This document shows positions 13,453 through 33,400 of a stretch of 64,000 nucleotides of DNA, in pieces. This DNA comes from Candidatus Nomurabacteria bacterium (GTDB lineage Bacteria; Patescibacteriota; Patescibacteriia; Magasanikbacterales; UBA922): positions 105,360-169,359 of the forward strand of contig JACKFN010000002.1 of assembly GCA_020632445.1 (NCBI GenBank), given 5' to 3'. Under the pieces are notes generated by a model. The model was not told the DNA's origin, searched no databases, and worked only from the letters and a program-made list of their open reading frames with translations. Made by a program: the position numbers and the translations under genes. How positions within the stretch are numbered: position 1 is the first letter of the stretch; each line of letters opens with the position of its first letter.

Positions 13453-13454
13453 CG

Positions 13455-16718: not shown

Positions 16719-16857
16719 GCAATAAAAAAATCGGCTCGTACTCTACTACAAATATTTCTCATAGTATAGCACAAACCGACAAAAAGAGGGATGCACGGCC
16801 GCGTGTCAGTGGGAAAATTCACGCGGCATGCTATTGGGTGGGATATATTGTGTGAGA

Positions 16858-18177
16858 TCAAGCGTCGCGCGGAAGGTAGATCATACCGGAGTTGGCCAGC
16901 TGTGCGCCATATCCGGCGCCAATCACCAGCTGCCCGATCAGGTCACCAGGCTGGACAAGTCTCATCTCAATGGCACGACTGATCACGATGCCCGTTGACG
17001 GGCACACGGTGTTGCCGATGTCAGGCGTGCGAAGTGTACGATCGAGCATATCCAGCATATCGGCCAGCTCCCGCACCAACTTGAAGTTGGCCTGGTGAAT
17101 CGCGATCAGCATGAACTCCGTGATAGACTCCACACCCCACATCCGCGTGAGCATCTCGGCGTTGTCCATCATCGCACGGAAGAAGACCTCGGCCACGACG
17201 CCGGCGTTCATGGTGTACCGCGCATCCTGCCAGTTGCCGGCGTAGAGCGGGAAATCCGAACCACCTGCCATGAAGTCGACCAGCTCGATCGGCAGCGACG
17301 ACTCGCAGGACGTAAGACGCCCCTGACCACACCGCTCGAAGATAAGCGCCGAACCACCATCCGCGAAGAACCACGGCGTAGCCGCAGCCCACGGATGAGG
17401 ATGTTCGTTGGCCGTTCGCGTGATGTCGGGGTGCATGGCGGAGCCCGATGTGGAGTTGGTCCCCACGACGACACCCAGCTGAAGTCCTTCATGGGCCTTC
17501 ATGAACGTAGCCATCTCGTTAATGGCCGCACCCAATCCAGCACACCCGAAGTTCATGTGACGAACGATCCATCGACTCCGGCTGAGCCCGAGGATGTTCA
17601 TAGCCGCGCCGATGAGCCCACCGAGGTTGGTCCTCCCAGTGGTGCTCACGAAAACCATCACACCATTGCTCGTCCGCGCTTCATCGAGCGAGATGCCGGC
17701 CTGGTGAAAGGCACGAACCACGGCGAGCACAGCGTAGTGAAGGTCCGTCATGTGGTCCACGAGCGGCACGAGCGCCTGACGATGGGTCGGGAACGTCGCG
17801 CGCTCCCTCATGCCATGTCTGCGCTGGAGCTCCAGGATGCGGTCACGGAACTCCACGAGCTCGGGGTTCGGTTCGTCGGGATCACCCATGATCGGGAACC
17901 CCGTCACCAGACACCTCCCCTTCTCGTCGGTGTAGCCCGCCTCGTGGGAATCGAGAAACCGCACATGGCCCTGTCTGTCGATCTTGACCGCCGCGCTCGA
18001 ACCTTCGGCCTCGGTCATGCCGTAGAAGTCTTGGGCGGACATGAGGCCACCGCTGGGCTTGTTCCAAGGGAACCCACGAGCAATGTCCTCGTAGGTCACC
18101 TGCTGTCGACCGACATCAGAGGCGGCACGCAGCACCACCCCCATAACTTCCACTGCGTTGATGGTGTTGCTGGACAT
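16858..18177 (-). CDS. FabH-like (KAS III-type) thiolase-fold condensing enzyme with a ~150 aa N-terminal extension, encoded on a high-GC island
   Basis: The catalytic triad context is conserved: NFGCAGLGAAI (Cys; cf. AAACAGF), IAIHQANFKLV (His; cf. VPHQANLRI) and DIGNTVCPSTG (Asn; cf. HGNTSAAS). The C-terminus LVIGAGYG matches the FabH end. GC3 is strongly elevated relative to the rest of the window. The start was chosen at ATG 18175-18177, which is preceded by the RBS GGCGGAGGGT, rather than the TTG at 18207. Confidence 0.7.
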   Translation of the reverse strand: MSSNTINAVEVMGVVLRAASDVGRQQVTYEDIARGFPWNKPSGGLMSAQDFYGMTEAEGSSAAVKIDRQGHVRFLDSHEAGYTDEKGRCLVTGFPIMGDPDEPNPELVEFRDRILELQRRHGMRERATFPTHRQALVPLVDHMTDLHYAVLAVVRAFHQAGISLDEARTSNGVMVFVSTTGRTNLGGLIGAAMNILGLSRSRWIVRHMNFGCAGLGAAINEMATFMKAHEGLQLGVVVGTNSTSGSAMHPDITRTANEHPHPWAAATPWFFADGGSALIFERCGQGRLTSCESSLPIELVDFMAGGSDFPLYAGNWQDARYTMNAGVVAEVFFRAMMDNAEMLTRMWGVESITEFMLIAIHQANFKLVRELADMLDMLDRTLRTPDIGNTVCPSTGIVISRAIEMRLVQPGDLIGQLVIGAGYGAQLANSGMIYLPRDA

Positions 18178-18396
18178 CTGACCCTCCGCCTTGATCTCGT
18201 GTTTCAAAACTCAGAATCTACAGCACCACCTGGCACTGGGATCCCGATGTATACGATGCATCCTAGCTTTCGTACACATTACTCTTGAGTTACTACTCAC
18301 CAAAGAATAATGTAAACAAAAACAGTCCTCGCCGGACATTCTATTCTATAGAGTAAAAAAAATCGCCGACAGGCCCCCTTTTTCAATTGAAACTCA

Positions 18397-18783
18397 CTAA
18401 TCCAAATCCATAATATTGTCCCGAAATCTCCCGCAGTTTATATCAAGAGCTCTGTAAATGTCAAATAAGCGTTCACTAGATAGTTCCCCCTTTTTAGCAA
18501 TGATTCCTCTTCTATCAAGAGTTTCTATCTTATACAGCTTACACAAAGCGTCAACGCCTAACCCATTTTCCGCGGCCACGAGAAGTACCTCGTTAGCAAA
18601 GACATGGTCACCTTTTTCACGCGGCTCAAGAATAGCGCATACAATAGTAGACAATCCTTCATTGAGGACATTATCCTGCAAAACCACCACAGCTTTTTCT
18701 CCCTTTTTTGACTCGTAGAGAAAAATATCACCACGCTCTATGACACCACAATACATGTTATCAATATCAAATGCTGCTTCCAT
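18397..18783 (-). CDS. MazF/PemK-family endoribonuclease toxin
   Basis: 128 aa. RGDIFLYE...KAVVVLQDN...LSTIVCAI...RRGIIAKKGELSSERLFDIYRALDI follows the PemK/MazF fold pattern (GDIWLV...RPVLIVS...VVVPxT...). It overlaps the upstream RHH gene. Confidence 0.65.
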   Translation of the reverse strand: MEAAFDIDNMYCGVIERGDIFLYESKKGEKAVVVLQDNVLNEGLSTIVCAILEPREKGDHVFANEVLLVAAENGLGVDALCKLYKIETLDRRGIIAKKGELSSERLFDIYRALDINCGRFRDNIMDLD

Positions 18784-21964: not shown

Positions 21965-23062
21965 TTACATTAAAGGTAAAGTAATGGTAAATACGGTTGA
22001 TGCTGATTGTCGAAAATCGTTATACTCGCCTTCATCTACATCCACCAATACTTCCCTCATTTGGTGGGTCGGACGAGCATTAAACTCATCATCAGTTTCT
22101 GCTCGAGCCTGCTTGGATTCTTTTGATTGAACGGATATCTTTCCACCCATCGATGCGATCAGCTCGTCGGCATGGGCAAGCCCCAGACCAGTGCTTTCAG
22201 AACCACTTACCCCTTCTCGAAAAAGCATTTTCTGCATAGCTTTATCCATGCCAACTCCATCATCACACACCTCGATGACAAACTCACGAAGCTCTGGATG
22301 AACATACATTCCAATACTAATATTTTTGGCACGGACCATTTTTTGTCTTTGCGCATATGTCAAATTCCCCAATATGTTCCGAAAAACATTAAAAAGCACT
22401 CCTTGAGCAACCTTGACCTGCTCATTTTGACCCTGCCGAAAGATGTTTACTTTCTCAAAAGTAATGCGTTTTTTGTATGTCTGCAAGAAAAGTTCAAATA
22501 AGTCTTTGATCTCTTCAATGTTTTTTTCTTCCATGATCTGCTCATCTCCAATGGCTTCTGGGATTTTATATGCGTAATTGTTATTTTCTGTTTGTGCTTT
22601 TTTTTGCTCCACATTATACGAACGCACCACTAATGACTCCATAATAGCTTCGTACAGTTCATATATATCGACCAATCGATTATACAATAGATGAAATCCT
22701 TCATCATCCCTTTCTCCATTATGTGGCTTAAGAGCATCTTCCATGGCTTCGATAAAGCCTACCACCAAGTTATAGTAGTCGTGAAAAAGGTCGTGACCAA
22801 CATATCGCTGTTTGATTTCTTCCGGAAAACTTTCAAACAAAACTGGCGTTTTCTTAAGACTGTCAATCATTCTGGTTGCAAAATCATAGCGTCCTGTACG
22901 TACTGCCTCTGCAGAAGCATGAATCAAAATTTTATACTCACGTAACTTCTTCAAAATGGTATCAAGTGACAATTTCTCTCTTGCCGCTTCCCGTTCTACT
23001 GATTTACCCATATCTTGAGCAGAAACCACAACACGTTGATCTACGACTCTTTTATCACTCAT
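21965..23062 (-). CDS. Cytoplasmic histidine-kinase-like ATPase (HATPase_c) protein with no TM and no clear H-box
   Basis: 365 aa. The N box is LFNVFRNILGNLTYA, G1 is VCDDGVGM and G2 is TGLGLAHADE. It is embedded between valS and tyrS, and its start overlaps the valS stop. Confidence 0.5.
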   Translation of the reverse strand: MSDKRVVDQRVVVSAQDMGKSVEREAAREKLSLDTILKKLREYKILIHASAEAVRTGRYDFATRMIDSLKKTPVLFESFPEEIKQRYVGHDLFHDYYNLVVGFIEAMEDALKPHNGERDDEGFHLLYNRLVDIYELYEAIMESLVVRSYNVEQKKAQTENNNYAYKIPEAIGDEQIMEEKNIEEIKDLFELFLQTYKKRITFEKVNIFRQGQNEQVKVAQGVLFNVFRNILGNLTYAQRQKMVRAKNISIGMYVHPELREFVIEVCDDGVGMDKAMQKMLFREGVSGSESTGLGLAHADELIASMGGKISVQSKESKQARAETDDEFNARPTHQMREVLVDVDEGEYNDFRQSASTVFTITLPLM

Positions 23063-25854
23063 ACAAAACTTTCTTGTTGTTCTTTTAGCTTTTTAAGATT
23101 TTCCTTTGCTTTGGCAAGTTTTTCCTTTTCTTGATTGACCACTGCCTCTGGTGCATTGCTGACAAAACTCTCATTGGAAAGTTTTTTCTCCTGAGCAATA
23201 ACATATGGTTCAATTCCGTCAATTTCTTTTTGGATTCTTTCTTTTTCTTTTTCAAAATCGACAGCACCAGCAAGATCTACATATACAGTTACTCCTGTGT
23301 CCACAAAACTCACCATAGTATCGGTTTTGTCTATCTGTGGTGCAATCGTGAATGACTGTAGTTTCAGAAGTTTTTGGATAACTTGTGCCTGACTATCAAG
23401 CAACACCTGAAATTCTTCTGTTTCAATTGAGACAGAAAGATCAACGGTATATGGTATATTGTACTCTCCTCGGATATTTCGAAGTCCAGTGATAACACTA
23501 CGGACGATTTCAAATTGATTTTCTATTTTTTCGTTGCCTTGAGTACTCATCGCCTTTGGCCATGGGGCGACCATAATAATTTGTTCTTCTCCATAAACAT
23601 TTTGCCAAATGGCTTCCGTAACAAACGGCATAAACGGATGCCACAAACGAAGCAACGTACTCAAAATCACATTGAGAATTTCTGATTTCTCCTCTCCTTC
23701 GGACTCTCGCTTGGCGATTTCCAAATACCAATCGGCCACATCATTCCAAGTAAATTCGCGAAGCTTTTCGAGTGCCAAAGTAAATTGATATTCTGCAACC
23801 AGCGTATTTACCTGTGTTATGGTGTTTTGTAATTTTTGAATAACCCACTGATCAGCGAGTGTGTATGCTTGTGGCATTTGAGAAATTTCTGGTGTGAGTG
23901 CACTTTCACGAATGTTCCCCTTCATGAAACGAGACAGATTCCATAATTTATTCACAAGATTTCTCGCATCTTCTACTTTTTCAATGTAAAAACGAGAATC
24001 ATTCCCAGGTGTGCATCCAGTAACCAAACTATACCGAAGCGCATCAGCACCATACTGCTCAATCATTTCGAGTGGATCAATTCCATTTCCTGCTGACTTG
24101 GAAAATTTCTTTCCATCTTTGTCGCGAAGCATCCCATGAATGTACACATTCGAAAAAGGAATTTCTCCAATCGCATATGTCGTCATCAAAATCATACGTG
24201 CCATCCAGAAAAACAAAATCTCCCACCCCATTTGCATCCAATTGGTTGGGTGAAACAATTTCAAATCTTCGGTTTGATCTGGCCACCCGAGCGTTGAAAA
24301 CGTCCAAAGACCGGAACTAAACCAGGTATCAAGGGTATCTTCGTCCTGAGTCCAGCCATCACCCTGTGGAGCTTCAACTCCGCAGTACACTTCTTCACCA
24401 CGGTACCACACCGGTATCCTATGGCCCCACCAAATCTGCCGTGAAATACACCAATCACGCAAATTATCAATCCATTCAAAATACGTCTTATTATACCTAT
24501 CAGGCAAAATGTTTACCTCTCCAGAACGCACCACCGTCTGCATAAGCTCTTTGAGCGTAACCTCCTGTCCGGCTTTGATATCTTTGAGCTTTGACTGTTT
24601 TAAAACAAATTTTTTATTAACATCCACAAACCACTGATTGGAGACCATTGGTTCTATCACGGTCTTGGTACGATAACACAGTGGCACTCGGTGAACATAG
24701 CTTACGTCTTCTCCAACAATGAGCCCCTTATCTTTCATGATCTGTACAGACTTTTTCCGTGCGCTTTCGATGGTTTCTCCTTCGAGCTCACCGGCGATCG
24801 ATGTCATCTTTCCAGAAAAATCAATCTTTTGGATAAATGTTTCATCTAAACCTCGTCGATTAGCCAAATCATAATCATCTGCTGAATGATTGGAAGAAAT
24901 AGTCATCGCACCTGCCCCCTTTTCCATGTCAATCACCTCGTCGGCAAGAACGGTAAAAGTTCGGGAACCAGCATAGGTCTCGTACTCGAATGTTTGCCCC
25001 TCCAACTCTTTTCCCATTTTTTCTTCGATAACAACAAACTCGCTTTGTGGCTGCAGGGCGCTTAGTACATTTTCCATTTGCTCCTTGTCGTCAAAAAGAT
25101 TTTTGGAAAGGATAAGTTCATCAGTCTCACCATCCGCATTGGTAAAACGCACTTTTACATAGACGCCTTCAGGATGCACCACGAGCGGCGAATTGGCACA
25201 CTTGGTTTCAGGACGAACCGTACCAATCACAAAGTTCCCACAACGGATGTAATAAAACGGTTCTTGTTTTTCATCCCACTCAAGCTCGTCATCCGAAAGC
25301 ACAGACTGCGCTCCAATAGACCAGTTGATCAAACGTGTACCACGGTAGATAAGTCCATCATCGTACATGCGCTTGAAAATTTCGTTCACGGCGCGATTGC
25401 GATCGTCGTCAAAAGTATAGCGAAGTCGTGACCAGTCAGCACTGGTACCGAGTTTTCGAATTTGTCCGAGAATGGTTGCTTTAGAATCTTCGGCAAAGGT
25501 ACGAATCCTACTGAGCAGTTCTTCTCTTCCAAGCTCCTCACGAGGATGCTCAATTCCTTCTTTTACCAAAAGGCCTTCTACCTTGGCCTGAGTGGCTACT
25601 GCTGCGTGATCAGTTCCGGGTAACAGTAACACTTTTTTCCCCTGCATACGCTGATAGCGCACCATGAGATCCATAAGGGAATTTTCCAATGCATGACCCA
25701 AATGCAAAATTCCCGTTACATTTGGTGGCGGCATCATCACAGAAAATGGTTCACCTTCCAGATTATCAGGGTTAAAAAAACCAGAATCTATCCATTTTTG
25801 ATAAATTTCATCTTCAAATTTACTCGGCTCATACGCCTTTTCCATTTCTTTCAT
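23059..25854 (-). CDS. valS: Valyl-tRNA synthetase
   Basis: 931 aa. MPPPNVTGILHLGHA is the ValS signature. The KMSKS motif is KFSKSAGN. A C-terminal coiled coil is present. Confidence 0.95.
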   Translation of the reverse strand: MKEMEKAYEPSKFEDEIYQKWIDSGFFNPDNLEGEPFSVMMPPPNVTGILHLGHALENSLMDLMVRYQRMQGKKVLLLPGTDHAAVATQAKVEGLLVKEGIEHPREELGREELLSRIRTFAEDSKATILGQIRKLGTSADWSRLRYTFDDDRNRAVNEIFKRMYDDGLIYRGTRLINWSIGAQSVLSDDELEWDEKQEPFYYIRCGNFVIGTVRPETKCANSPLVVHPEGVYVKVRFTNADGETDELILSKNLFDDKEQMENVLSALQPQSEFVVIEEKMGKELEGQTFEYETYAGSRTFTVLADEVIDMEKGAGAMTISSNHSADDYDLANRRGLDETFIQKIDFSGKMTSIAGELEGETIESARKKSVQIMKDKGLIVGEDVSYVHRVPLCYRTKTVIEPMVSNQWFVDVNKKFVLKQSKLKDIKAGQEVTLKELMQTVVRSGEVNILPDRYNKTYFEWIDNLRDWCISRQIWWGHRIPVWYRGEEVYCGVEAPQGDGWTQDEDTLDTWFSSGLWTFSTLGWPDQTEDLKLFHPTNWMQMGWEILFFWMARMILMTTYAIGEIPFSNVYIHGMLRDKDGKKFSKSAGNGIDPLEMIEQYGADALRYSLVTGCTPGNDSRFYIEKVEDARNLVNKLWNLSRFMKGNIRESALTPEISQMPQAYTLADQWVIQKLQNTITQVNTLVAEYQFTLALEKLREFTWNDVADWYLEIAKRESEGEEKSEILNVILSTLLRLWHPFMPFVTEAIWQNVYGEEQIIMVAPWPKAMSTQGNEKIENQFEIVRSVITGLRNIRGEYNIPYTVDLSVSIETEEFQVLLDSQAQVIQKLLKLQSFTIAPQIDKTDTMVSFVDTGVTVYVDLAGAVDFEKEKERIQKEIDGIEPYVIAQEKKLSNESFVSNAPEAVVNQEKEKLAKAKENLKKLKEQQESFV

Positions 25855-25991
25855 AAAATTTGCCTAAAATAAAAGAAAAAACAGCATTTATGCAATCAAT
25901 AGATTTATGGTAGCAAATCCAGGCAAAAAAAGCAAATATTGTGCCAAGATAAGCCAAATATTTATCCCCAAGCCACAAATTGACCCAAGAC

Positions 25992-26020
25992 TTGACGTAT
26001 ATGAATTTTTTTGGTATAGT
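25992..26020 (+). promoter_or_regulatory. AT-rich sigma70-like promoter TTGACG-17-TATAGT, immediately upstream of high-GC island 2
   Basis: TTGACG is at 25992-25997 and TATAGT at 26015-26020. The RBS GGAGGA (26041-26046) and GTG (26052) follow. Confidence 0.5.
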
Positions 26021-26051
26021 CATTTATCCGTAACCACCACGGAGGACATCC

Positions 26052-26219
26052 GTGTCCCGTACCAGAAGGACCATCGGTCGAGCCCTGTTTTGGGGCTTGG
26101 CCGCCAACACCGCATGGGTGTTCCTCATGTCGGTAGGGTCCTACGAGCTCCTCGATGGGATCTTCGACATCGACGAGCTGTTCAACTACCGATTCAAGCC
26201 GAAGGAGGAAGACAAGTGA
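26052..26219 (+). CDS. Small membrane protein (55 aa), first ORF of the GC-island micro-operon
   Basis: GTG start with the RBS GGAGGA. The product is VSRTRRTIGRALFWGLAANTAWVFLMSVGSYELLDGIFDIDELFNYRFKPKEEDK. GC3 is high. Its stop overlaps the next start (GTGA). Confidence 0.4.
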   Translation: MSRTRRTIGRALFWGLAANTAWVFLMSVGSYELLDGIFDIDELFNYRFKPKEEDK

Positions 26220-26386
26220 ACGGGATAGCCGAGGACCTGCTCGAGTCGTCTGTGGGCTTATGCCCCTTCTTCATCGTCGACGGCATCAACTGGCTCGAAC
26301 GCCGCGCTCGCGCGCGGACTCGTCGTCGCGAAAACCGTGAAATCCGTCGCTGTAAGCAGATGCAGCATATCTGGGGGCTCTGGTGA
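26216..26386 (+). CDS. Small protein (56 aa) with a hydrophobic N-terminal half and an Arg-rich tail
   Basis: GTG start preceded by AAGGAGGA. The product is VNGIAEDLLESSVGLCPFFIVDGINWLERRARARTRRRENREIRRCKQMQHIWGLW. It is coupled to both ORF1 and ORF3. Confidence 0.4.
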   Translation: MNGIAEDLLESSVGLCPFFIVDGINWLERRARARTRRRENREIRRCKQMQHIWGLW

Positions 26387-26607
26387 TGCTGTTCTACCGC
26401 GCTGGCATCGTCGTCGGTCTCATGCTCAACACCGAGGCCGCAGCGGCCAAGGTGCTGAACCGGCGATCCATTGACGTCGCAGTCGCCTGCCACATCGTCA
26501 GCATCGCCGTCATGGGAGCATTCCTCCCTGAGACCTTCAAGAAGGGCATGCATGACGCCGAGTCAGCGGTGGAAGCTCTAACCAACCCATTCGACTTCGA
26601 CATCTGA
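26383..26607 (+). CDS. Small hydrophobic protein (74 aa), third coupled ORF
   Basis: ATGA stop/start overlap with ORF2. The product is MMLFYRAGIVVGLMLNTEAAAAKVL...VAVACHIVSIAVMGAFLPETFKKG. Confidence 0.4.
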   Translation: MMLFYRAGIVVGLMLNTEAAAAKVLNRRSIDVAVACHIVSIAVMGAFLPETFKKGMHDAESAVEALTNPFDFDI

Positions 26608-26691
26608 TCGTCCCACAAACCACCCCACGCGGACCCCACCCCGCCATCTTCAGAAGAGCAAATACTTGTTTGTTGTTCTGAGTAGAAAAAT

Positions 26692-27855
26692 ATGGCACTA
26701 AAGATTAATGAACAAATCATGAAACGATTTGATCAGGCAAATAACATCCTGATTGTTTTTCGTCGCCATTTTTCTGGAGACTCAATTGCATCAGCGCTTG
26801 GGCTCTATAACTACCTCGAATCAAAAAACAAACGAGTCGACATGGTGTCGGAAAATTTTGTCCTTCCTACACAATACGAATTTTTGCCAAAAGCACATCT
26901 GATCAAAAAAGAATTTTCCTTTCTGCAAAAATTTGTCATTACCGTAGACATCAAGGATATTGGAATTGAAGAACTCAACTATGATGTGGAGCATGAAAAG
27001 CTACGCATTTTTGTTACTCCAAAACAGGGACTCATTACCGGAAACCACATCCGTACCGCGCAGACTCGATTTCGCTATGATCTCATTGTCGTGGTGGACA
27101 GCCCTGACCTCGAATCACTTGGAGATCTCTTTGAAAAACACACAGATTTGTTTTACCAAATTCCCGTTATCAATATTGATAACCACAGCGAAAACGAACA
27201 CTTTGGTCACATCAACCATGTTGATATTACCGCAACCTCTACCGCTGAAATGGTCTACAACCTCATCAAAACCGATCAAAAGCTCGTTATGGATGCTGAC
27301 AAGGCGACTACCCTGCTTACAGGAATCATTGCCAAAACACAGAGCTTCAAGACCAATGAGACCAAACCACACACACTTAATATTGCCAGTGAACTCATCA
27401 ACCACGGAGCAGATCGAGACCTTATTATTCGCAACCTCTACCGCACTCGTAGCGTTAATGCGCTCAAACTCTGGGGACAGGCGCTCACACACCTCAAGCA
27501 CGACCGATCAAACAATCTTGTCTGGACGAGTATTACCCGAGAAGATTTCGTTCGCACTGGTGCCAATGAATATGACCTGCATGATATTGTCGATGAACTT
27601 ATCTCGAACTCTCCAGAAGCAGAAGTGATTGCCCTCTTTTATGAACCACACCACAAGGATTCAGAAGGAACACCCGTGCATGTTCTCCTTACCGTCGAAA
27701 AACCATACGACGCTGCCAAGCTCGTCGGTGAATATGGCCCCCTCCTTGGAGGAAAAAGACGCGTGTCCTTTATCGTAGAAGGAAAATCACTTGCAGATGT
27801 TGAAAGCAGTATTGTGGAGACGATCAAAAAACGAATGAAAGAAGTGAAAAAGTAA
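26692..27855 (+). CDS. DHH-family phosphoesterase (NrnA-like core) with variant motif III (DNH instead of DHH)
   Basis: 387 aa. Motif I is HFSGDSIASALG, motif II is VVVDSPD and motif III is NIDNHSEN. Its size is NrnA-like. Confidence 0.5.
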   Translation: MALKINEQIMKRFDQANNILIVFRRHFSGDSIASALGLYNYLESKNKRVDMVSENFVLPTQYEFLPKAHLIKKEFSFLQKFVITVDIKDIGIEELNYDVEHEKLRIFVTPKQGLITGNHIRTAQTRFRYDLIVVVDSPDLESLGDLFEKHTDLFYQIPVINIDNHSENEHFGHINHVDITATSTAEMVYNLIKTDQKLVMDADKATTLLTGIIAKTQSFKTNETKPHTLNIASELINHGADRDLIIRNLYRTRSVNALKLWGQALTHLKHDRSNNLVWTSITREDFVRTGANEYDLHDIVDELISNSPEAEVIALFYEPHHKDSEGTPVHVLLTVEKPYDAAKLVGEYGPLLGGKRRVSFIVEGKSLADVESSIVETIKKRMKEVKK

Positions 27856-27881
27856 CAGTAAAGCTAAAAAAAAAATCGGCA

Positions 27882-28448
27882 TCAAGCCGATTTTTCATTT
27901 TCTCGAAATACTTTCATACCTTTCGCATCCTCATACAGCATGTGATATTGCTTCTGGACTCTTTTACCCCAACTATGCGGATCCTTGATATTTCCATTTT
28001 GATCAAAAAGTTCTTTGACATTATCAAAATACAGCTTTCCGGTTATAACCATTTCAAAATTCGTAATGACTGGCGAAATGTTTTCAAGTACTCGAGCTCC
28101 TCCAAAACGACCAGTCGAAACTCCTACAAGCAAACAGGGCTTACGATAGTACTGGTCAAAAACTTGATCCATTACCATCTTAAGTTCGCCTGGATACCCA
28201 TGGTTGTACTCTGGTATCACAAAAACAAACGCATCTGCGGCATCGACCTCTTTTGACCATGGACGAGTCAGTTTCTTACTTTGCCAATCAGGTACTGTTC
28301 TGCCAAGCATAAACGTCTCAACCTTCAATAATTTCGTTTTGATGCTGCTTTTTTTTTTGAGTTCGCCAAAAAGATATCTTGCCACCTTAATGCTATTTGC
28401 TCCTTTTCGAGCTGTCCCAAGGACTACGGGGATATGAAGTTTTTTCAT
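27882..28448 (-). CDS. NAD(P)H-dependent FMN reductase family flavoprotein
   Basis: 188 aa. VFVIPEYNHGYPGELKMVMD matches the PEYNxxxPGxLKNAxD signature. Confidence 0.75.
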   Translation of the reverse strand: MKKLHIPVVLGTARKGANSIKVARYLFGELKKKSSIKTKLLKVETFMLGRTVPDWQSKKLTRPWSKEVDAADAFVFVIPEYNHGYPGELKMVMDQVFDQYYRKPCLLVGVSTGRFGGARVLENISPVITNFEMVITGKLYFDNVKELFDQNGNIKDPHSWGKRVQKQYHMLYEDAKGMKVFRENEKSA

Positions 28449-28449
28449 A

Positions 28450-29184
28450 TTACTTGGTTACATAATACATTCGACTCTCGATCAGTTCACCCGCACTGGT
28501 ATCGTTTGCTGCCTCAAGAAGCTTTGCCTTCCCCTGCAAAAAAGCCTCCACACGCTCTTGTGGCAGCCAATTCATTTGAATCGGATACAATTTCAGTCGG
28601 TTGTACAACAATTCATGCGAGAATCCGAGAGCTGACAAAAATTGATACACTCTTCGCTTAGGTTGGAGTCGGTGAATAAACGGAACCTTGCTTGGAACCT
28701 GAAAAGCAATAACTCCCCCAGGTCTTAGGACACGAATAAATTCACCAATGTATCTTTCTATTTGATTTTTGTCTGGGATATGTTGCAGCACTATATTGCA
28801 ATACACCATATCAAAAGTGTCATCTTTAAACATCGACAAATCATCTGCCTGATTGACAATGAATTGTTGTTTGTCGTCCCCCTCATGGAGTTTTTTAGCT
28901 TTTTCTATCATGGCCTTTGACACGTCGACCCCAACGGCATCGTCAAAATGCTGACTCAGTGCCTTGGTGAGTCTCCCGACTCCACAACCAAAATCCAAAA
29001 CTTTCTTTGTTTCTTTCGGTAGGTCAAAAGTATTTACCTTTTGCATGATAACGTCGATTTCCTTTTGTCCGGTGACAAAAAATTCTGATTCATCCCATCC
29101 ATTGAATCTTTTTGTCGGGTCAGAAAGCACAGCCCACAGTGGGTCCATTTCTCCAAGTTTGTCCCATTCTTTTTTGTAGTTCAT
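28450..29184 (-). CDS. Class I SAM-dependent methyltransferase
   Basis: Motif I is VLDFGCGVGRLT and the post-I region is VGVDVSKAMIEKAKK. Confidence 0.8.
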   Translation of the reverse strand: MNYKKEWDKLGEMDPLWAVLSDPTKRFNGWDESEFFVTGQKEIDVIMQKVNTFDLPKETKKVLDFGCGVGRLTKALSQHFDDAVGVDVSKAMIEKAKKLHEGDDKQQFIVNQADDLSMFKDDTFDMVYCNIVLQHIPDKNQIERYIGEFIRVLRPGGVIAFQVPSKVPFIHRLQPKRRVYQFLSALGFSHELLYNRLKLYPIQMNWLPQERVEAFLQGKAKLLEAANDTSAGELIESRMYYVTK

Positions 29185-29200
29185 TTTTGTAATTCAATAG

Positions 29201-30775
29201 TTACATCAAGGCCCTCCCGGTCATTTCTGGAGGAATTGGTATTTCCAACATAGAAAGTACCGTTGGCGCGACATCTGCGAGCATACCAACAGGAGGCATT
29301 AGACTCAAGTCACCTCCTGGCGCATCACCAGAAGGGCCAGCTTGCCCCACATAATTCTTTCCAATGACATAGAATGGCACAGGATTATTTGAATGTTCTT
29401 TGTCCCTATCCCCCGTTTGGAGATTCACCATTGACTCAGCATTTCCGTGGTCCGCGGTTATCAAAAGGACTCCATCCTTTGCCAAAGTATACTCAGCAAT
29501 TTGACCAAGACAGCCATCGAGTGTCTCAATAGCTCTTATGGTCGCCTGAAGATCTCCAGTATGCCCCACCATATCGGCATTTGCAAAATTCACAATGATG
29601 ACGTCATGCTGCCCACCTTGAATAAGTTTGATAACCTCCTTGGTAATCTCCGGAGCTGACATTTCTGGTGCTTGATCATAAGAGGAAACCTTTGGTGAGG
29701 GAACAAGTACTCGGTCTTCATTTTCAAATTCATCCTCTACGGTACCATTGAGAAAAAACGTAACGTGGGCATATTTTTCTGTTTCTGCCACATGCGCCTG
29801 GCGAAGACCTGCTTTGGAAATAACTTCAGCAAGACAGTTTTGAACAACAACTGGTGGATAGGCAACCGACACCGGAAGTTCTTTTTCATATTCTGTCATG
29901 GAAGCAAAATACAAATTCTGGATCTTTTTGGTTTCAAACTTGCTGAACCCAGGCAAAACAATGGCCTTAGTGATTTCACGCGCGCGATCTGGTCTGAAGT
30001 TAAAAAAAATCACGGCATCATTATCATCAATGGTAGCCAATGGCTGTCCTTGAGTACCAATCACCACAGGTTCAAATTCCTCATCATATATTTCTTTGAC
30101 ATACGAAGCATCCAGTGCAGCCAATGGATCAGAAAAGTATGATGACGCCCTTCCAAAAACCATTGCATCATATGCCTTTTGAACCCGCTCCCAACGGTTA
30201 TCACGGTCCATAGCAAAATGACGACCAGACAAAGTAGCGATTTTCCCTAAACCAATTTCAGAAAGCTTGTTTTGCAGTCTCCCAATAAAATCTTTTCCAC
30301 TATTGTAGACAGCATCACGACCATCCGTAAACGCATGTACAAAAACATCCTTCACTCCATTTGCCTTTGCCATGTCCAAAAGTGCATCGCAGTGATCCTG
30401 GGCTCCATGAACATTTCCCGCACTCATAATGCCCATAATATGAAGTTTTGAACCGTTGGTTTTGGCATGTTCCATTGCCCCAAGAAGTGCCTTGTTCTGC
30501 GCAAACTCACCACTTGAAATTTCGTTATTAATACGTGGCAGTGTTTGGTAGTATACACGTCCGGCACCAATATTGAGATGTCCTACCTCAGAATTTCCCA
30601 TCTCTCCAAACCGAAGCCCCACTTCGTTTCCAGAAGACAAAAGCGTCATAGCTGGATAATGTGCTACGAAGTTATCAAAATTGGGAGTCTTGGCAACATA
30701 GATGGCATTTCCATCACCGGGGGGTGCGACTCCAAATCCATCGAGAATAGCGAGTACTAAGGGTTTTGGCCTCAT
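29201..30775 (-). CDS. gpmI: 2,3-bisphosphoglycerate-independent phosphoglycerate mutase
   Basis: 524 aa. The N-terminus reads LVLAILDGFGV. The catalytic-Ser motif is MGNSEVGHLNIGAGR and the metal-binding region reads TADHGNAE. Confidence 0.9.
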   Translation of the reverse strand: MRPKPLVLAILDGFGVAPPGDGNAIYVAKTPNFDNFVAHYPAMTLLSSGNEVGLRFGEMGNSEVGHLNIGAGRVYYQTLPRINNEISSGEFAQNKALLGAMEHAKTNGSKLHIMGIMSAGNVHGAQDHCDALLDMAKANGVKDVFVHAFTDGRDAVYNSGKDFIGRLQNKLSEIGLGKIATLSGRHFAMDRDNRWERVQKAYDAMVFGRASSYFSDPLAALDASYVKEIYDEEFEPVVIGTQGQPLATIDDNDAVIFFNFRPDRAREITKAIVLPGFSKFETKKIQNLYFASMTEYEKELPVSVAYPPVVVQNCLAEVISKAGLRQAHVAETEKYAHVTFFLNGTVEDEFENEDRVLVPSPKVSSYDQAPEMSAPEITKEVIKLIQGGQHDVIIVNFANADMVGHTGDLQATIRAIETLDGCLGQIAEYTLAKDGVLLITADHGNAESMVNLQTGDRDKEHSNNPVPFYVIGKNYVGQAGPSGDAPGGDLSLMPPVGMLADVAPTVLSMLEIPIPPEMTGRALM

Positions 30776-30778
30776 AGA

Positions 30779-32404
30779 TTAATACAGTTCTTGACCAGTC
30801 ATATCATCAGGCTTTGGGAGCCCCATGAGTTTGAGCACTGTAGGAGCGACATCCGCGAGCTTTCCATTTTTCTTCAGTCTGATCGCTCGAGCATTTTTTT
30901 TGATAATGATAAATGGAACAGGATTAGTGGTATGTTCAGTCATCTGTTCTCCGGTAACTTCGTTAATCATCCGCTCGGCGTTTCCATGATCAGCCGTAAT
31001 AACCACCTGACCATCTATCGAAAGCATATACTCAACGAGTTTCCCTATCGCAGCATCCATGTGGTGCACGGCAACTTTTGCAGCCTCTAAATTTCCAGTG
31101 TGCCCAACCATGTCTGCATTGGGAAAATTTACACAGATAAAATCAAAAGTATCTTGAACAAAATATTCTTGAATTTTTTTTCCAACCTGATGACTCATCA
31201 TTTGCGGATGATCTGCATACGTATAGTGTCCGGTAGATCGGACGAGCTGTCTTTTTTCACCATTGATAGCACTGGGAAATCCACCATTAAGAAAGTACGT
31301 AACATGCGCGTATTTCTCGGTTTCTGAAAGAAAAAGCTGTCGGTAATCTTCACCAATGGCCTTTGCTAGACAATTTTTGAAATCAGGACTCGGAAAAGCA
31401 GTAAATACTCCAGGAAGGTCCGGTCCAAAATCCGTCATGGCGACAAATCGAGTATTCTTCGGAAATTTTTTTCTGTGAAACGCACCTTTGTTCCGTTTAT
31501 GGAAATCAGTTTGTACAAATGCCTTCGTGAGTTGTCGGGCACGATCAGAACGTGCATTAAAAAAGAAAATCACGTCATTGTTTTTGAGTTTCACTATGGG
31601 TTTTCCTTTCTCCGTGATAATAGTAGGTGAAATATATTCATCTGTTTCTCCTCGATTGTACGCTTGTGAAATTGCCTCTTCTACACTTGTGGCTTCATAC
31701 GGTGCCTCTCCCAGTACAATAGTATCATAAGCTTTTTTCGTCCTATCCCATAGCTTGTTTCTGTCCATAGCATAAAACCTTCCCATAACACTGGCAATCT
31801 TTTCCTTCTGCATACTCTTGTGAAGCGCATGCAAATGTTTCACTGCAGAATGTGGGGGCGAATCCCGTCCATCGGTAAAGAGGTGGAGATATACATTATG
31901 AAACTTTTCTCGACGAAAATACTCCAAAAGGGCATACAAATGTTCAGGGTGTGCATGTGCACTGTTATGATTTGTCAAAAGACCCATCAAATGAATGTTG
32001 GTATTGTATTTCTTTGCATGAAATAGCCCTTGCTTGAAAGCTTCATTTTTAAAAAATGTCCCATCAGTAATGGAACCCCAAATACGTACGAGGTCCTGCT
32101 CTACCACTCTTCCTGCCCCGATGTTAAAATGACCCGCTTCGGAATTCCCTTGTTGCCCAGAAAACAGTCCTACATATGTTCCATGAGCTTTGAGCTTCGT
32201 ACTGGGGTAATTTTTCATGTACGAAAAAAGGTTGGGAGCCGTTTTTGGTGTGATGGCATTCCCTTTTTGTTTTGAAGAGAGACCAAAGCCATCCATGATA
32301 ATAAAAAGTGTTTTCTTTTTTGAATTTTTTTGAATTTTTTCTGCTGGCATATGCTCTATTGTACTCTTTTTGTCGTTGGAATTCAAATCTCCCTGCCACA
32401 CCAC
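30779..32404 (-). CDS. Second, divergent iPGM-family paralog (cofactor-independent phosphoglycerate mutase-like)
   Basis: 541 aa. It carries FIIMDGFGLS, QGNSEAGHFNIGAGR and TADHGNAER. The true start is possibly downstream, at MPAEK. Confidence 0.75.
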   Translation of the reverse strand: MVWQGDLNSNDKKSTIEHMPAEKIQKNSKKKTLFIIMDGFGLSSKQKGNAITPKTAPNLFSYMKNYPSTKLKAHGTYVGLFSGQQGNSEAGHFNIGAGRVVEQDLVRIWGSITDGTFFKNEAFKQGLFHAKKYNTNIHLMGLLTNHNSAHAHPEHLYALLEYFRREKFHNVYLHLFTDGRDSPPHSAVKHLHALHKSMQKEKIASVMGRFYAMDRNKLWDRTKKAYDTIVLGEAPYEATSVEEAISQAYNRGETDEYISPTIITEKGKPIVKLKNNDVIFFFNARSDRARQLTKAFVQTDFHKRNKGAFHRKKFPKNTRFVAMTDFGPDLPGVFTAFPSPDFKNCLAKAIGEDYRQLFLSETEKYAHVTYFLNGGFPSAINGEKRQLVRSTGHYTYADHPQMMSHQVGKKIQEYFVQDTFDFICVNFPNADMVGHTGNLEAAKVAVHHMDAAIGKLVEYMLSIDGQVVITADHGNAERMINEVTGEQMTEHTTNPVPFIIIKKNARAIRLKKNGKLADVAPTVLKLMGLPKPDDMTGQELY

Positions 32405-32468
32405 TATATTGACAAATTAGCTTTTTCATGTTAAGGTCGATGCAGTACAATCATGGGGAGGTACCCCG

Positions 32469-33317
32469 ATGTTCTACGTAATCACAGCGGTAGTCGTCGC
32501 CGCCGTATTTGTCGCTATCAGCATCGTTCGTAATCTCCGTCAGGGACGGTCCTTCGAGGAGATGGCCGATGATGGTCAGCAGCCCAAGGACGAAGGCGAC
32601 AAGAGCAAGCAGAACGATCGCTTCGCTCTACCCGATGACAAGGCGGCCACCTCGAGGGCTAACCTGAAGACCGTGCTGGACTACCCCCCGGACAAGGTGC
32701 CCATGGTGACCATCGTGTACGTGGACGACGATGGACACCAGAAGCGCCGGCGCTGGCCGGTGATTCAAGGTCTCCGGATGGTAAGGACCTTTTTGCGCCA
32801 AGGAGTTCGAACTCAACGTTTCGCCATCCGTGATGTCTCGGAGTTCGACCCCACGAACACCTCACAGCAGGGTGACGCTGACGCGCTGTTCTGGCGCATC
32901 AACGATGGTACGAGCGAGCCCGACCTCGACCCCCCGATCCCCTGCGAGCTGCTGATGATCCTGATGGGGGTGGATCAGAAAGAAGCAGATCGGCTCTTCG
33001 ATGCCATGCAAAAAGGTAACGCGCGAGACACGATCGCTGACCCACGAGGCGCCGCAGAGGTCGCACGCACCCATGCGCTCGCTGAGCAGGGGATTCGCGT
33101 TAATCTGCGTCGCACCATCGCACTTGGTGATCCAGCGATCGCCTCCCTTCAGAACTTCATGGCGATCAACCAAGCTCCTGAGCGAGCTCTGGCAGAGGTA
33201 GTGCAGGCACGTCGAACAAATCTGGGGATGCCATCCCCTCAGTTGTCCGACCCTGAACCTGCCGACAGTCAACGACCGACGCTCTTCGCCAACCCTACCG
33301 ATCCCACCAAAAGCTAG
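32469..33317 (+). CDS. Hypothetical membrane-anchored protein encoded on high-GC island 3
   Basis: 282 aa. The RBS GGGGAGG lies 7 nt before the ATG. The N-terminal TM is FYVITAVVVAAVFVAISIV, followed by an acidic/Pro-rich soluble domain. GC3 is high. A terminator follows. Confidence 0.5.
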   Translation: MFYVITAVVVAAVFVAISIVRNLRQGRSFEEMADDGQQPKDEGDKSKQNDRFALPDDKAATSRANLKTVLDYPPDKVPMVTIVYVDDDGHQKRRRWPVIQGLRMVRTFLRQGVRTQRFAIRDVSEFDPTNTSQQGDADALFWRINDGTSEPDLDPPIPCELLMILMGVDQKEADRLFDAMQKGNARDTIADPRGAAEVARTHALAEQGIRVNLRRTIALGDPAIASLQNFMAINQAPERALAEVVQARRTNLGMPSPQLSDPEPADSQRPTLFANPTDPTKS

Positions 33318-33343
33318 CCGAAGCCTCACCCTCGGCAAACTCC

Positions 33344-33382
33344 AAAAAGCCCGCTCTTTTGATAGAGCGGGCTTTTTGTTTT
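33344..33382. terminator. Bidirectional rho-independent terminator after the island-3 gene (+) and eno (-)
   Basis: AAAAAGCCCGCTC-ttttgata-GAGCGGGCTTTTTGTTTT. Confidence 0.6.
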
Positions 33383-33400
33383 GCTGCGACGACGTATTCT

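What the first reader, a model, noticed from the sequence alone, without database searches (positions are those of the whole stretch)
25992..26607. Island 2: promoter-driven micro-operon of three tiny, translationally coupled ORFs (GTGA and ATGA overlaps)
Downstream of a clean TTGACG-17-TATAGT promoter sit three ORFs of 55, 56 and 74 aa. Each has its own Shine-Dalgarno site, and stop and start codons overlap (GTGA, then ATGA). This pattern is unlikely in random high-GC sequence. ORF1 is a single-TM peptide. ORF2 has a hydrophobic N-terminal half and an RRARARTRRRENREIRR tail. ORF3 has two hydrophobic stretches. Small membrane and cationic peptides in a coupled cassette resemble holin/antiholin-like lysis cassettes, type I/II toxin modules or membrane-stress peptides. 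None matches a family recognisable by eye.
Basis: seen in the sequence. Interest (0 to 1): 0.6.

Follow-up and report, generated by a model that had tools for sequence, protein, structure and literature searches.

The report
Conserved GC-rich operon of tiny membrane proteins
The three tiny overlapping genes are real: the same cassette sits at the same place in two other distantly related Parcubacteria, it encodes small membrane proteins with no relatives elsewhere, and its GC-rich, ribosome-binding-site-bearing style is alien to the rest of the genome yet has been kept over long evolutionary time.

Summary
A TTGACG-17-TATAGT promoter with a TG extension (25992-26020) is followed by three tiled ORFs: 26052-26219, 26216-26386 and 26386-26607.

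The window comes from a Candidatus Nomurabacteria MAG. NCBI annotates only ORF3 (H6758_01715).

Evidence that the ORFs are coding:
- GC3 is 0.74-0.80 and its phase switches at each ORF boundary.
- ORF1 and ORF2 have a GGAGG-type Shine-Dalgarno (SD) site; ORF3 has a weaker GGGGG.
- A chain of three coupled ORFs arises in 1.4% of shuffles.

The same GC-rich (60-65%) cassette lies between valS and an NrnA-like DHH gene in two other lineages (valS 47-56% identical). Promoter and leader are nearly identical there. ORF3 homology is strong; ORF2 homology is weaker; for ORF1 only position and architecture are conserved.

No homologue exists outside this clade, and no Pfam, PHROG, NCBIfam, PADLOC, Rfam, phage or plasmid match was found. 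Nothing supports a lysis or toxin cassette.

Most likely this is a clade-specific operon of small membrane proteins, probably read through into the DHH gene.

The surprise is wider. Native genes have low GC3 and no SD. Genes in all three GC-rich islands have both. Synonymous sites are saturated between lineages, so this composition is maintained, not a relic of transfer. The cause is unexplained.

The parts
25907..25935 (-). Inferred divergent valS promoter: -35 TTGCTT (25935-25930), 17 nt, TGcTACCAT extended -10 (25915-25907).
   Evidence: Read from the sequence. Both hexamer blocks are conserved in all three lineages although neutral sites are saturated. Function is inferred.
25946..25971 (.). 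Invariant 26-nt block AAGATAAGCCAAATATTTATCCCCAA between the two divergent promoters. It contains ATTTATCC box 1 (25960-25967). Probable binding site for a regulator.
   Evidence: Identical in the window, L003 and L002. The ATTTATCC pair keeps a 61-62 nt spacing in all three lineages. Function is inferred.
25992..26020 (+). Sigma-70-type promoter TTGACG-17-TATAGT with a TG extended -10.
   Evidence: 10 of 12 matches plus TG. The -35 hexamer and the stretch TGGTATAGTCATTTATCCG are identical in all three lineages.
26022..26029 (+). ATTTATCC box 2. It overlaps the expected transcription start, 6-10 nt after the -10. Operator-like position.
   Evidence: Function is inferred.
26035..26045 (+). Conserved leader ACCACGGAGGA carrying the SD site (GGAGG 26041-26045) for ORF1.
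   Evidence: CACG(G/A)AGG is conserved in three lineages. The same ACCACGGAGGA leader precedes an island-3 gene in L004.
26052..26219 (+). ORF1, 55 aa, GTG start. Basic N-terminus, one moderately hydrophobic helix, acidic C-tail. Not annotated in NCBI.
   Evidence: GC3 0.80 in this frame and codon phase. L003 has a positional counterpart (TTG start, SD, GC3 0.74). Sequence similarity to the L003 ORF1 is not significant (p = 0.53). It is weakly similar to L002 ORF-A (p = 0.0065). The exact sequence is not in the protein collection.
26216..26386 (+). ORF2, 56 aa, GTG start overlapping the ORF1 stop (GTGA). Acidic IAEDLLE N-terminus, a hydrophobic segment, then the polybasic tail RRARARTRRRENREIRR. 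Not annotated in NCBI.
   Evidence: GC3 0.74, SD AAGGAGG. The same architecture occurs in L003 ORF2 and L002 ORF-A. Shuffle tests: window vs L002 z = 4.4 (p = 0.0005); L003 vs L002 z = 8.3; window vs L003 not significant (z = 0.8).
26386..26607 (+). ORF3, 73 aa (alternative GTG start at 26383). Three predicted helices, conserved motif GAFLPExFKxG, acidic C-tail. This is H6758_01715.
   Evidence: Only relatives among 1.84 billion representatives: P0004 (E = 7.7e-7) and P0005 (E = 2.8e-5), both at the same locus in other lineages. Shuffle z = 15-24. Nucleotide identity runs codon position 2 > 1 > 3. AlphaFold2 pLDDT 82.
26629..26644 (+). Conserved C-rich non-coding motif GCGGACCCCACCCCGC just after the ORF3 stop. 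It could form a small GCGG/CCGC stem. Role unknown.
   Evidence: Conserved in three lineages. The local GC skew of -0.38 is.
26651..26680 (+). Imperfect hairpin CAGAAGAGCAAA-tacttg-TTTGTTGTTCTG, 11 nt before the DHH start codon. Each lineage has a hairpin here with a different sequence. Possible attenuator, processing or stability element.
   Evidence: Present in the minimum-free-energy folds of all three lineages. It is not scored as an intrinsic terminator.
26692..27855 (+). NrnA/TM1595-type DHH phosphodiesterase, 387 aa. No SD and no recognisable promoter of its own, so probably co-transcribed with the cassette.
   Evidence: Pfam DHH. PDB relatives are TM1595 and NrnA. It is 74-87% identical between lineages. 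No promoter or terminator was called between ORF3 and this gene.

Best explanation
Island 2 is a vertically inherited operon specific to one Parcubacteria clade. It is neither an insertion nor a phage remnant.

Transcription (inferred). A strongly conserved sigma-70-type promoter starts transcription near 26026-26030. Two ATTTATCC boxes bracket the promoter and look like operator sites.

Translation. The transcript carries three cistrons:
- ORF1 and ORF2 each have a GGAGG-type SD site; ORF3 has a weaker GGGGG.
- The cistrons are joined by 4-nt or 1-nt stop/start overlaps, so ribosomes finishing one would restart on the next. That would give fixed ratios of the three products. Coupling is inferred from the overlaps.

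Products (inferred from hydropathy, charge and an AlphaFold2 model):
- ORF1: single-pass, basic N-terminus inside the cell.
- ORF2: single-pass, acidic N-terminus outside and polybasic tail inside.
- ORF3: helical hairpin plus an amphipathic acidic helix.

My best guess is that they assemble into a small hetero-oligomeric complex in the cytoplasmic membrane. This is not shown.

Downstream. No terminator or promoter separates ORF3 from the next gene. Transcription therefore probably continues, through a conserved C-rich element and a hairpin, into the highly conserved NrnA-like DHH phosphodiesterase gene.

Shown: coding status on the + strand, conservation of promoter, leader and cassette, and restriction to this clade.

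Wider pattern. The cassette belongs to a distinct gene class in these genomes: GC3 of 0.6-0.8 and SD-led. Its composition is actively maintained against an AT-rich, SD-less background.
For: Coding on the + strand:
- GC3 is 0.74-0.80 in the window ORFs and 0.70-0.82 in all nine ORFs of the three lineages. Flanking genes have 0.31-0.44.
- The GC phase switches at both junctions.
- Periodicity z = 5.3, and a three-ORF chain arises in 1.4% of shuffles.
- ORF3 nucleotide identity runs codon position 2 (0.67-0.76) > 1 (about 0.48) > 3 (0.32-0.40).
- The ORF3 frame gives the best tblastx score, 62 bits.

Conservation:
- The same valS | island | DHH synteny and a 60-65% GC island occur in L003 and in L002/L004.
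- The junctions in the window are reproduced by an independent Logan assembly.
- The promoter and leader stretch TGGTATAGTCATTTATCCG is identical in all three lineages.
- The upstream region is 73-80% identical. Four-fold degenerate sites are saturated at 0.3-0.4.

Homology: ORF3 z = 15-24; ORF2-type z = 4.4 and 8.3.

Clade restriction: only P0004 and P0005 were found among 1.84 billion representatives. The word-indexed searches found nothing for ORF1 or ORF2.

Membrane character. Three-helix model.

Operon with DHH: no terminator or promoter was called between them. DHH has no SD.

Two gene classes.
Against: - No expression data of any kind.
- ORF1 has no statistically detectable similarity to its L003 counterpart (p = 0.53), and L002 lacks a separate ORF1.
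- The ORF2 hydrophobic segment in the window is short and contains an Asp.
- Complex formation and topology are inference only.
- A weak terminator, or a leaderless promoter for DHH inside the hairpin region, cannot be excluded.
- Only three lineages could be found, so no 'empty site' relative was seen.
- The transcript folds more stably than shuffles (z = -2.4, -3.4 and -5.7). An RNA-level role may therefore coexist with coding.
Confidence: 0.6

Rival explanations
1. Translated regulatory leader. What matters is that the GC-rich, structured, SD-led ORFs get translated, not what peptides they make. Ribosome traffic over them would control read-through into the DHH gene, via Rho acting on the C-rich tail or via the hairpin.
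For: - The cassette sits between the only recognisable promoter and an SD-less, very conserved DHH gene.
- A conserved C-rich tail and a lineage-specific hairpin lie just before the DHH start.
- Folding is in excess of shuffles, z = -2.4 to -5.7, against about 0 for native genes.
- ORF1 and ORF2 sequences drift fast and cistron content varies between lineages.
Against: - ORF3 shows protein-level constraint: z = 15-24, the codon-position conservation pattern and a conserved motif.
- About 185 codons in three cistrons is far longer than known leader peptides.
- Islands 1 and 3 have the same composition and SD signals but encode 449-aa and 282-aa proteins and end at ordinary terminators. The style is therefore not specific to a leader.
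Confidence: 0.15
2. A domesticated lysis-type or toxin-type cassette. ORF2 would act as a holin-like or type I toxin-like membrane-permeabilising peptide, and ORF1 or ORF3 as its antagonist.
For: - Peptides of 50-75 aa with one transmembrane segment; ORF2 has a highly charged basic C-tail.
- Overlapping cistrons.
- Fast sequence evolution and gain or loss of cistrons between lineages.
- The paired operator-like boxes suggest tight control.
Against: - No PHROG, NCBIfam or PADLOC match; the only Pfam hit is a chance-level, unrelated one (PF24850, E = 0.021, below cutoff).
- No relatives in 50,697 phage records, in IMG/VR or in plasmids.
- No endolysin, spanin, integrase or antitoxin-type gene nearby; the neighbours are housekeeping genes.
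- Fixed position between lineages whose valS proteins are only 47-56% identical.
- The strong promoter and SD sites argue for routine expression.
Confidence: 0.12
3. A horizontally acquired high-GC fragment that merely persists. On this view the ORFs are orphan genes or decaying genes with no current role.
For: - GC is 60% against 42% in the genome, with sharp boundaries.
- The codon usage is foreign-looking, with C at 47% of third positions.
- SD sites occur in a genome that otherwise lacks them.
Against: - No flanking repeats, tRNA gene or mobility genes.
- The promoter lies in native-type AT-rich DNA and is conserved.
- The island is present at the same site in all three lineages found.
- Synonymous sites are saturated, yet GC3 stays at 0.7-0.8 and the reading frames, SD sites and overlaps are intact in every lineage.
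- No donor homologue was found in 1.84 billion representatives.
Confidence: 0.08
4. The true genes are the antisense ORFs (26194-26553 and 26394-26720, - strand), or the island is a purely non-coding structured RNA.
For: - Long antisense ORFs of 119 and 108 aa exist.
- GC-rich islands in AT-rich genomes are a classic signature of structured RNAs.
- Folding z-scores are negative.
Against: - The antisense ORFs have flat GC by codon position (0.64/0.53/0.64 and 0.40/0.58/0.66), no SD, and lower tblastx scores than the sense frames.
- The three-base periodicity and its phase switches fit + strand coding.
- No Rfam family matches, even at E <= 1.
Confidence: 0.03

Closest known systems
Phage holin/antiholin lysis cassettes
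   Same: Small membrane proteins of 50-80 aa. One has a transmembrane segment followed by a highly charged C-terminal tail. The genes are tightly packed and overlapping.
   Different: No endolysin, spanin or any phage gene nearby. No PHROG or Pfam holin match, and no phage relatives. The cassette sits between valS and an NrnA-like gene at a position kept between lineages whose valS proteins are only 47-56% identical.
Type I toxin-antitoxin membrane peptides (Hok, TisB, Fst and similar; from general knowledge)
   Same: Hydrophobic single-helix peptides shorter than 60 aa, missed by annotation.
   Different: Three coupled cistrons with a strong promoter and SD sites. No evidence of an antisense RNA. 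Not multi-copy and not mobile. No family match.
Small membrane-protein subunits or regulators encoded in operons with their partners (KdpF, AcrZ, MgrB, CydX; from general knowledge)
   Same: Size, a single helix or helical hairpin, weak sequence conservation with conserved architecture, and co-transcription with a larger conserved gene.
   Different: No homology to any of them. The downstream partner here is a soluble DHH phosphodiesterase. No interaction has been shown.
Compositional genomic islands acquired by horizontal transfer
   Same: About 18 points more GC than the genome, atypical codon usage and sharp boundaries.
   Different: No mobility genes or att-like repeats. Native-type conserved promoter. 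Syntenic in all relatives found. Composition maintained after synonymous saturation. No donor known.
The SD-bearing rpsU gene in SD-'blind' Bacteroidia (PMC9976891, PMC13000453)
   Same: A very small set of genes carries strong SD sites in a genome whose other genes have none. This hints at a separate translation regime.
   Different: Different phylum and different kinds of gene. Here the SD-led genes are also GC-rich. Whether this clade has, hides or lacks the anti-SD is unknown; the anti-SD motif was detected in only 48% of Parcubacteria 16S genes (PMC9297842).

Membership tests
Holin / lysis cassette | At least one transmembrane segment plus a hydrophilic, highly charged C-terminus | tested here: met
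   ORF2 and its counterparts have a hydrophobic segment followed by a polybasic tail.
Holin / lysis cassette | Adjacent endolysin or spanin, within a phage or prophage context | tested here: not met
   The neighbours are valS, a DHH gene, an FMN reductase and a methyltransferase in all lineages. No phage relatives were found.
Holin / lysis cassette | Match to a known holin family profile | tested here: not met
   No holin family in Pfam or PHROGs at E <= 1. The only Pfam hit is unrelated and sub-threshold (PF24850, E = 0.021).
Holin / lysis cassette | Membrane permeabilisation or lysis on expression | not testable with these tools
   This needs an experiment.
Type I toxin-antitoxin | Hydrophobic toxin peptide of about 60 aa or less | tested here: met
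   ORF1 is 55 aa and ORF2 is 56 aa, each with one hydrophobic segment.
Type I toxin-antitoxin | Antisense or overlapping small-RNA antitoxin | tested here: inconclusive
   No - strand promoter-like site was found within the island. No transcript data are available.
Type II toxin-antitoxin | Two-gene operon with a recognisable toxin domain and a DNA-binding antitoxin domain | tested here: not met
   No toxin or antitoxin domain in Pfam, NCBIfam or PADLOC. A true MazF gene lies elsewhere, at 18397-18783.
Horizontally acquired genomic island | Deviant base composition and codon usage | tested here: met
   GC 0.60 against 0.42; GC3 0.79 against about 0.40.
Horizontally acquired genomic island | Flanking repeats, a tRNA target or mobility genes | tested here: not met
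   Only short chance-level repeats. No tRNA gene nearby. No integrase or transposase ORF.
Horizontally acquired genomic island | Patchy distribution: absent from the same site in relatives, with homologues in a donor | tested here: not met
   Present at the same site in all three lineages found. No homologue exists outside the clade. Only three lineages could be sampled.
Structured non-coding RNA (GC-rich island in an AT-rich genome) | Match to a described RNA family | tested here: not met
   Rfam at the gathering threshold and at E <= 1 gave only two chance-level hits.
Structured non-coding RNA (GC-rich island in an AT-rich genome) | Absence of a coding signature | tested here: not met
   Strong three-base periodicity with phase switches, plus protein-level conservation.
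Structured non-coding RNA (GC-rich island in an AT-rich genome) | Conserved secondary structure with covariation | not testable with these tools
   The three island sequences cannot be aligned at the DNA level. The only evidence is excess folding energy, z = -2.4, -3.4 and -5.7.
Sigma-70-type promoter | -35 and -10 hexamers at 16-18 nt spacing, conserved in orthologous positions | tested here: met
   10 of 12 matches plus TG. The hexamers are identical in three lineages despite saturated neutral divergence.

The most novel reading that the evidence does not exclude
This Parcubacteria clade may run two gene classes side by side.
- The bulk of genes are AT-rich and have no SD site.
- A small, syntenically conserved set of lineage-specific genes, mostly for membrane proteins, is kept GC-rich (GC3 0.6-0.8, C-rich third positions), more structured as RNA, and led by GGAGG sites. 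This micro-operon is one of that set.

The second class would be translated under a separate, SD-dependent regime. The nearest analogy is rpsU in SD-blind Bacteroidia.

The most extreme version is that these genes are tuned to the translation system of a high-GC host cell. I give that version only a few per cent.
Probability: 0.2. Interest if true: 0.85.

Novelty: new variant of a known kind. Interest (0 to 1): 0.62.

Why it matters
- It adds two unannotated genes and a new three-member set of small membrane-protein families to a candidate-phyla-radiation (CPR) genome. It shows they are real by comparative evidence alone.
- The islands expose a clean, testable anomaly. Genes whose GC content, codon choice and ribosome-binding signals differ completely from the rest of the genome have stayed that way after synonymous sites turned over completely. 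Ordinary amelioration of foreign DNA cannot explain this.
- The anomaly points to selection on mRNA or translation, or to a local mutation or conversion bias, in organisms whose ribosomes are already known to be unusual (PMC9297842).
- It gives a concrete handle for asking whether SD-dependent initiation survives as a specialised channel in SD-poor bacteria: the SD-led, GC-rich genes found in all three lineages.

Tried and rejected
Searches that found nothing:
- Rfam over the whole window and at a permissive threshold over the island. Only RNase P RNA and a tRNA elsewhere, plus two chance hits.
- Pfam, PHROGs, NCBIfam and PADLOC for all small ORFs of the three lineages and for the antisense ORFs. 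Only one chance-level Pfam hit (PF24850) for ORF2.
- blastn and tblastn against phages and plasmids. Only E of about 1 noise.
- IMG/VR scans with each peptide and with the ORF3 alignment.
- Word-indexed protein searches for ORF1 and ORF2.
- Fold search of the ORF3 model against the PDB: best E = 3.2, meaningless. The afdb50 library was unavailable.

Limited reach:
- The metagenome and genome scans with the DHH protein returned only the Crystal Geyser lineage again. No more distant relative and no empty site could be examined.
- All L004-L011 contigs are identical, or differ by a single base, to L002, so they carry essentially no population variation.

Ideas rejected:
- 'Hypervariable cassette between conserved flanks'. 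ORF3 at 35-40% identity is only moderately more diverged than valS at 50-56%. The DHH gene and the promoter are unusually conserved; the island is not unusually fast.
- Diversity-generating retroelement or repeat-based mechanisms. No template-like repeats were found.
- TatA-like identity for ORF3. The LPE/FKK resemblance is by eye only, and there is no Pfam hit.
- Frameshifted pseudogene of one larger gene. Each cistron keeps its own start, SD site and phase in every lineage.
Full report
WHAT IS THERE

The window has about 42% GC with three sharp islands of about 60% GC: 16801-18250, 26051-26650 and 32451-33400. Island 2 lies between two divergently oriented genes. These are valS (23059-25854, - strand) and a 387-aa DHH-family gene (26692-27855, + strand).

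It reads TTGACG-17-TATAGT at 25992-26020, with 10 of 12 matches and a TG extended -10. Three ORFs follow:
- ORF1, 26052-26219, GTG start, 55 aa.
- ORF2, 26216-26386, GTG start, 56 aa.
- ORF3, 26383/26386-26607, 74 or 73 aa.

SD sites precede the first two ORFs. GGAGG lies 6 nt before ORF1 and AAGGAGG lies 7 nt before ORF2. ORF3 has only a weaker GGGGG.

One detail needs correcting. The second junction is GGTGATG, not ATGA. That is a GTGA overlap with a GTG start, or a 1-nt overlap with the ATG start that NCBI and the orthologues favour.

IS IT MORE THAN CHANCE?

Open frames are cheap at 60% GC, and antisense ORFs of 119 and 108 aa also exist. Three observations go beyond that:
- A chain of three coupled ORFs of at least 45 aa appears in only 28 of 2000 dinucleotide shuffles of the island.
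- Pooled GC at codon positions 1, 2 and 3 is 0.58, 0.42 and 0.79, with z = +5.3 for GC3.
- The GC-rich phase moves from coordinate class 2 to 1 to 0 exactly at the two junctions.

The antisense ORFs have flat profiles and no SD. The 159-aa ORF 25907-26386, called by the Logan pipeline, is a mis-call. It fuses AT-rich upstream DNA, the wrong frame across ORF1, and ORF2.

PROVENANCE

ORF3 is H6758_01715 (MCB9798421.1) of a Candidatus Nomurabacteria MAG. ORF1 and ORF2 are not in the protein collection, so they are unannotated. An independent Logan contig from SRR12358675 is 100% identical to window 24507-32612. The junctions are therefore not an assembly artefact of one pipeline.

COMPARATIVE EVIDENCE

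An exhaustive HMMER search of 1.84 billion representatives with ORF3 found only two relatives: P0004 (E = 7.7e-7) and P0005 (E = 2.8e-5). Both are encoded at the same locus in other Parcubacteria-type contigs:
- L003, from Logan run SRR29965070.
- The Crystal Geyser lineage L002/L004-L011, recorded as PCWN01000005.1, 'Candidatus Magasanikbacteria'.

In both lineages a 60-65% GC island sits between valS and the DHH gene, in a genome of about 40% GC.

L003 has the same three-cistron layout:
- ORF1', TTG start, 49 aa.
- ORF2', 63 aa.
- ORF3', 71 aa, with the same GGTGATG junction.

L002 has a different set:
- ORF-A, TTG start, 58 aa, of the ORF2 type.
- ORF-B, 62 aa, of the ORF3 type.
- ORF-C, 82 aa, an ORF3 paralogue joined by an ATGA overlap.

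All nine ORFs have GC3 of 0.70-0.82 and an SD-like site.

Shuffle-controlled Smith-Waterman tests give:
- z = 15-24 among ORF3 orthologues, and z = 7.9 for ORF-C against the window ORF3.
- z = 8.3 (L003 vs L002) and z = 4.4 (window vs L002) for the ORF2 type. The window vs L003 ORF2 pair is not significant (z = 0.8).
- No significant similarity between the two ORF1s (p = 0.53). The window ORF1 is weakly similar to L002 ORF-A (p = 0.0065).

ORF3 is therefore firmly a conserved protein. ORF2 is supported through its architecture and through L002. ORF1 rests on coding signature and position.

DEPTH OF DIVERGENCE

The three lineages are old. Protein identities between them are as follows.

| Protein | Identity |
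|---|---|
| valS | 47-56% |
| Methyltransferase | 61-72% |
| DHH | 74-87% |

Identity at four-fold degenerate sites is 0.3-0.4 in every gene, which means they are saturated.

Against that background, three features stand out as constrained:
- The promoter and leader stretch TGGTATAGTCATTTATCCG is identical in all three lineages.
- A 26-nt block at 25946-25971 is invariant.
- The spacer upstream of the island is 73-80% identical.

Two ATTTATCC boxes, 61-62 nt apart, bracket the promoter in all lineages. One lies upstream of the -35 and one over the expected start site. I read these as operator sites; this is inference.

ORF3 nucleotide identity follows codon position 2 > 1 > 3. That is the pattern expected under protein-level selection. 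An early impression that the island is hypervariable did not survive this baseline. It is ORF1 and ORF2 that drift fast.

WHAT THE PRODUCTS LOOK LIKE

Hydropathy and charge profiles give:
- ORF1: basic N-terminus, one moderately hydrophobic helix, acidic tail.
- ORF2 family: acidic (I)AEDL N-terminus, a hydrophobic segment, and a polybasic tail (RRARARTRRRENREIRR, KRRQQERSQRNKRN or RKERRNRRSRRA).
- ORF3 family: a hydrophobic or amphipathic N-terminal helix, a clear transmembrane helix ending in GAFLPExFKxG, then an acidic amphipathic helix.

AlphaFold2 on a three-sequence alignment of ORF3 predicts helices at 2-24, 27-45 and 49-66, with pLDDT 82. The fold search gave nothing meaningful.

No family library, RNA library, phage, plasmid or viral-contig search gave a real hit.

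HOW IT MOST LIKELY WORKS

A regulated promoter drives a short-leader mRNA. Three SD-led cistrons are translated in a coupled manner and yield small membrane proteins. These probably act together, with the opposite charges of the ORF2 and ORF3 tails a possible contact.

No promoter or intrinsic terminator is called between ORF3 and the DHH gene, and that gene has no SD. Between them lie a conserved C-rich motif (26629-26644) and a hairpin that is present in each lineage with a different sequence. The cassette is therefore probably co-transcribed with the NrnA/TM1595-type phosphodiesterase, perhaps with attenuation.

What is shown:
- Coding status.
- Conservation.
- Clade restriction.

What is inferred:
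- Topology.
- Complex formation.
- Operon extent.
- Regulation.

Rival readings are weighed in the structured fields. They are a translated regulatory leader, a holin-like or toxin-like module, inert foreign DNA, and antisense genes or a pure RNA.

THE UNEXPECTED PART

In the window, 46 native ORFs of at least 150 aa have GC3 of 0.33-0.47. Only four have a weak SD-like tetramer upstream and none has GGAGG. The genes of islands 1, 2 and 3 have GC3 of 0.68-0.80 and GGAGG-type sites.

L003 and L004 show the same split:
- Native genes: 1 of 19 with any SD-like tetramer, GC3 0.28-0.42.
- Island genes: 9 of 9 with an SD-like site, GC3 0.57-0.82.

Several further points tie the islands together:
- Islands 1 and 3 are also conserved in position.
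- The island-3 proteins are weakly homologous N-terminally anchored membrane proteins (32% over 71 aa, E = 1e-8).
- One island-3 gene in L004 carries the same ACCACGGAGGA leader as island 2.
- Third positions in island genes are 47% C and 29% G, against 18% and 22% in native genes.

Synonymous sites are saturated between lineages. The islands' composition is therefore at its own equilibrium and is not a fading trace of transfer.

The island-2 transcript also folds more stably than shuffles.

| Segment | Folding z-score |
|---|---|
| Island 2, window | -2.4 |
| Island 2, L003 | -3.4 |
| Island 2, L002 | -5.7 |
| Five native segments | -0.4 to +1.2 |
| Island 1 | -1.8 |
| Island 3 | -1.1 |

Published work reports that the anti-SD motif is detectable in only 48% of Parcubacteria 16S genes (PMC9297842). 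In SD-blind Bacteroidia a single SD-bearing gene, rpsU, is translated under a special regime (PMC9976891, PMC13000453). Whether something similar operates here cannot be decided from this window, because it holds no rRNA gene.

VERDICT

The feature is real, conserved and previously unannotated for two of its three genes. It is not a member of any known family. The holin and toxin analogies are untested resemblances that fail the context and profile tests. The most interesting aspect is the maintained compositional and translational-signal dichotomy, of which this micro-operon is the clearest example.

Noticed in passing
window 16801-18250 and 32451-33400; L004 1-650 and 13801-15100; L003 11951-12216: There are two further GC-rich (about 60%) islands. 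Each carries an SD-led orphan gene: a 449-aa protein with a sub-threshold KAS III C-terminal hit (- strand), and a 282-aa N-terminally anchored protein (H6758_01745). Both islands are conserved in position in the relatives. The island-3 proteins are weakly homologous (E = 1e-8).
   Followed up: partly
whole window; L003; L004: Native genes lack Shine-Dalgarno sites almost completely, whereas every island gene has a GGAGG-type site. Upstream regions of native genes are A/T-rich.
   Followed up: partly
window 25946-25971, 25960-25967 and 26022-26029: A 26-nt block is invariant across three deeply diverged lineages. Two ATTTATCC boxes at a fixed 61-62 nt spacing bracket the promoter. Together they look like a regulator binding site shared by the divergent valS and cassette promoters.
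   Followed up: partly
window 26692-27855: The NrnA/TM1595-type DHH phosphodiesterase is far more conserved (74-87% aa) than valS (47-56%) or the neighbouring FMN reductase (54-64%). It has no SD site and no recognisable promoter of its own.
   Followed up: partly
window 18397-18783 (- strand); L004 793-1182: A MazF/PemK-family toxin gene lies next to island 1. The same adjacency occurs in the Crystal Geyser lineage, where a 90-aa upstream partner was also called.
   Followed up: no
window 12996-13428 (+), 13454-13540 (-), 48347-48420 (-): RNase P RNA class A (174 bits) with several insertions; tRNA-Leu(GAG); and a tRNA-Ile with a TAT anticodon instead of the usual modified CAT.
   Followed up: no
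window 29201-30775 and 30779-32404 (- strand): Two tandem paralogues of cofactor-independent phosphoglycerate mutase (Metalloenzyme/iPGM_N domains). They are also tandem in L003 and L004.
   Followed up: no
L002 3693-3724: A perfect 12-bp inverted repeat (AAGGCCATCTGC / GCAGATGGCCTT) lies inside ORF-C, with ACGGAGGA in the loop. It contributes to the strongly negative folding z-score of that lineage.
   Followed up: no
window 26162-26171 and 26595-26604: The 10-nt repeat CTTCGACATC encodes an acidic F-D-I motif near the C-termini of both ORF1 (IFDIDELF) and ORF3 (PFDFDI). L003 ORF3 ends in PFDIDYADD. This may be a shared interaction motif.
   Followed up: no
window 25907-26386: The public Logan gene call (159 aa) is a mis-prediction spanning AT-rich upstream DNA, the wrong frame over ORF1, and ORF2. 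NCBI calls neither ORF1 nor ORF2.
   Followed up: yes
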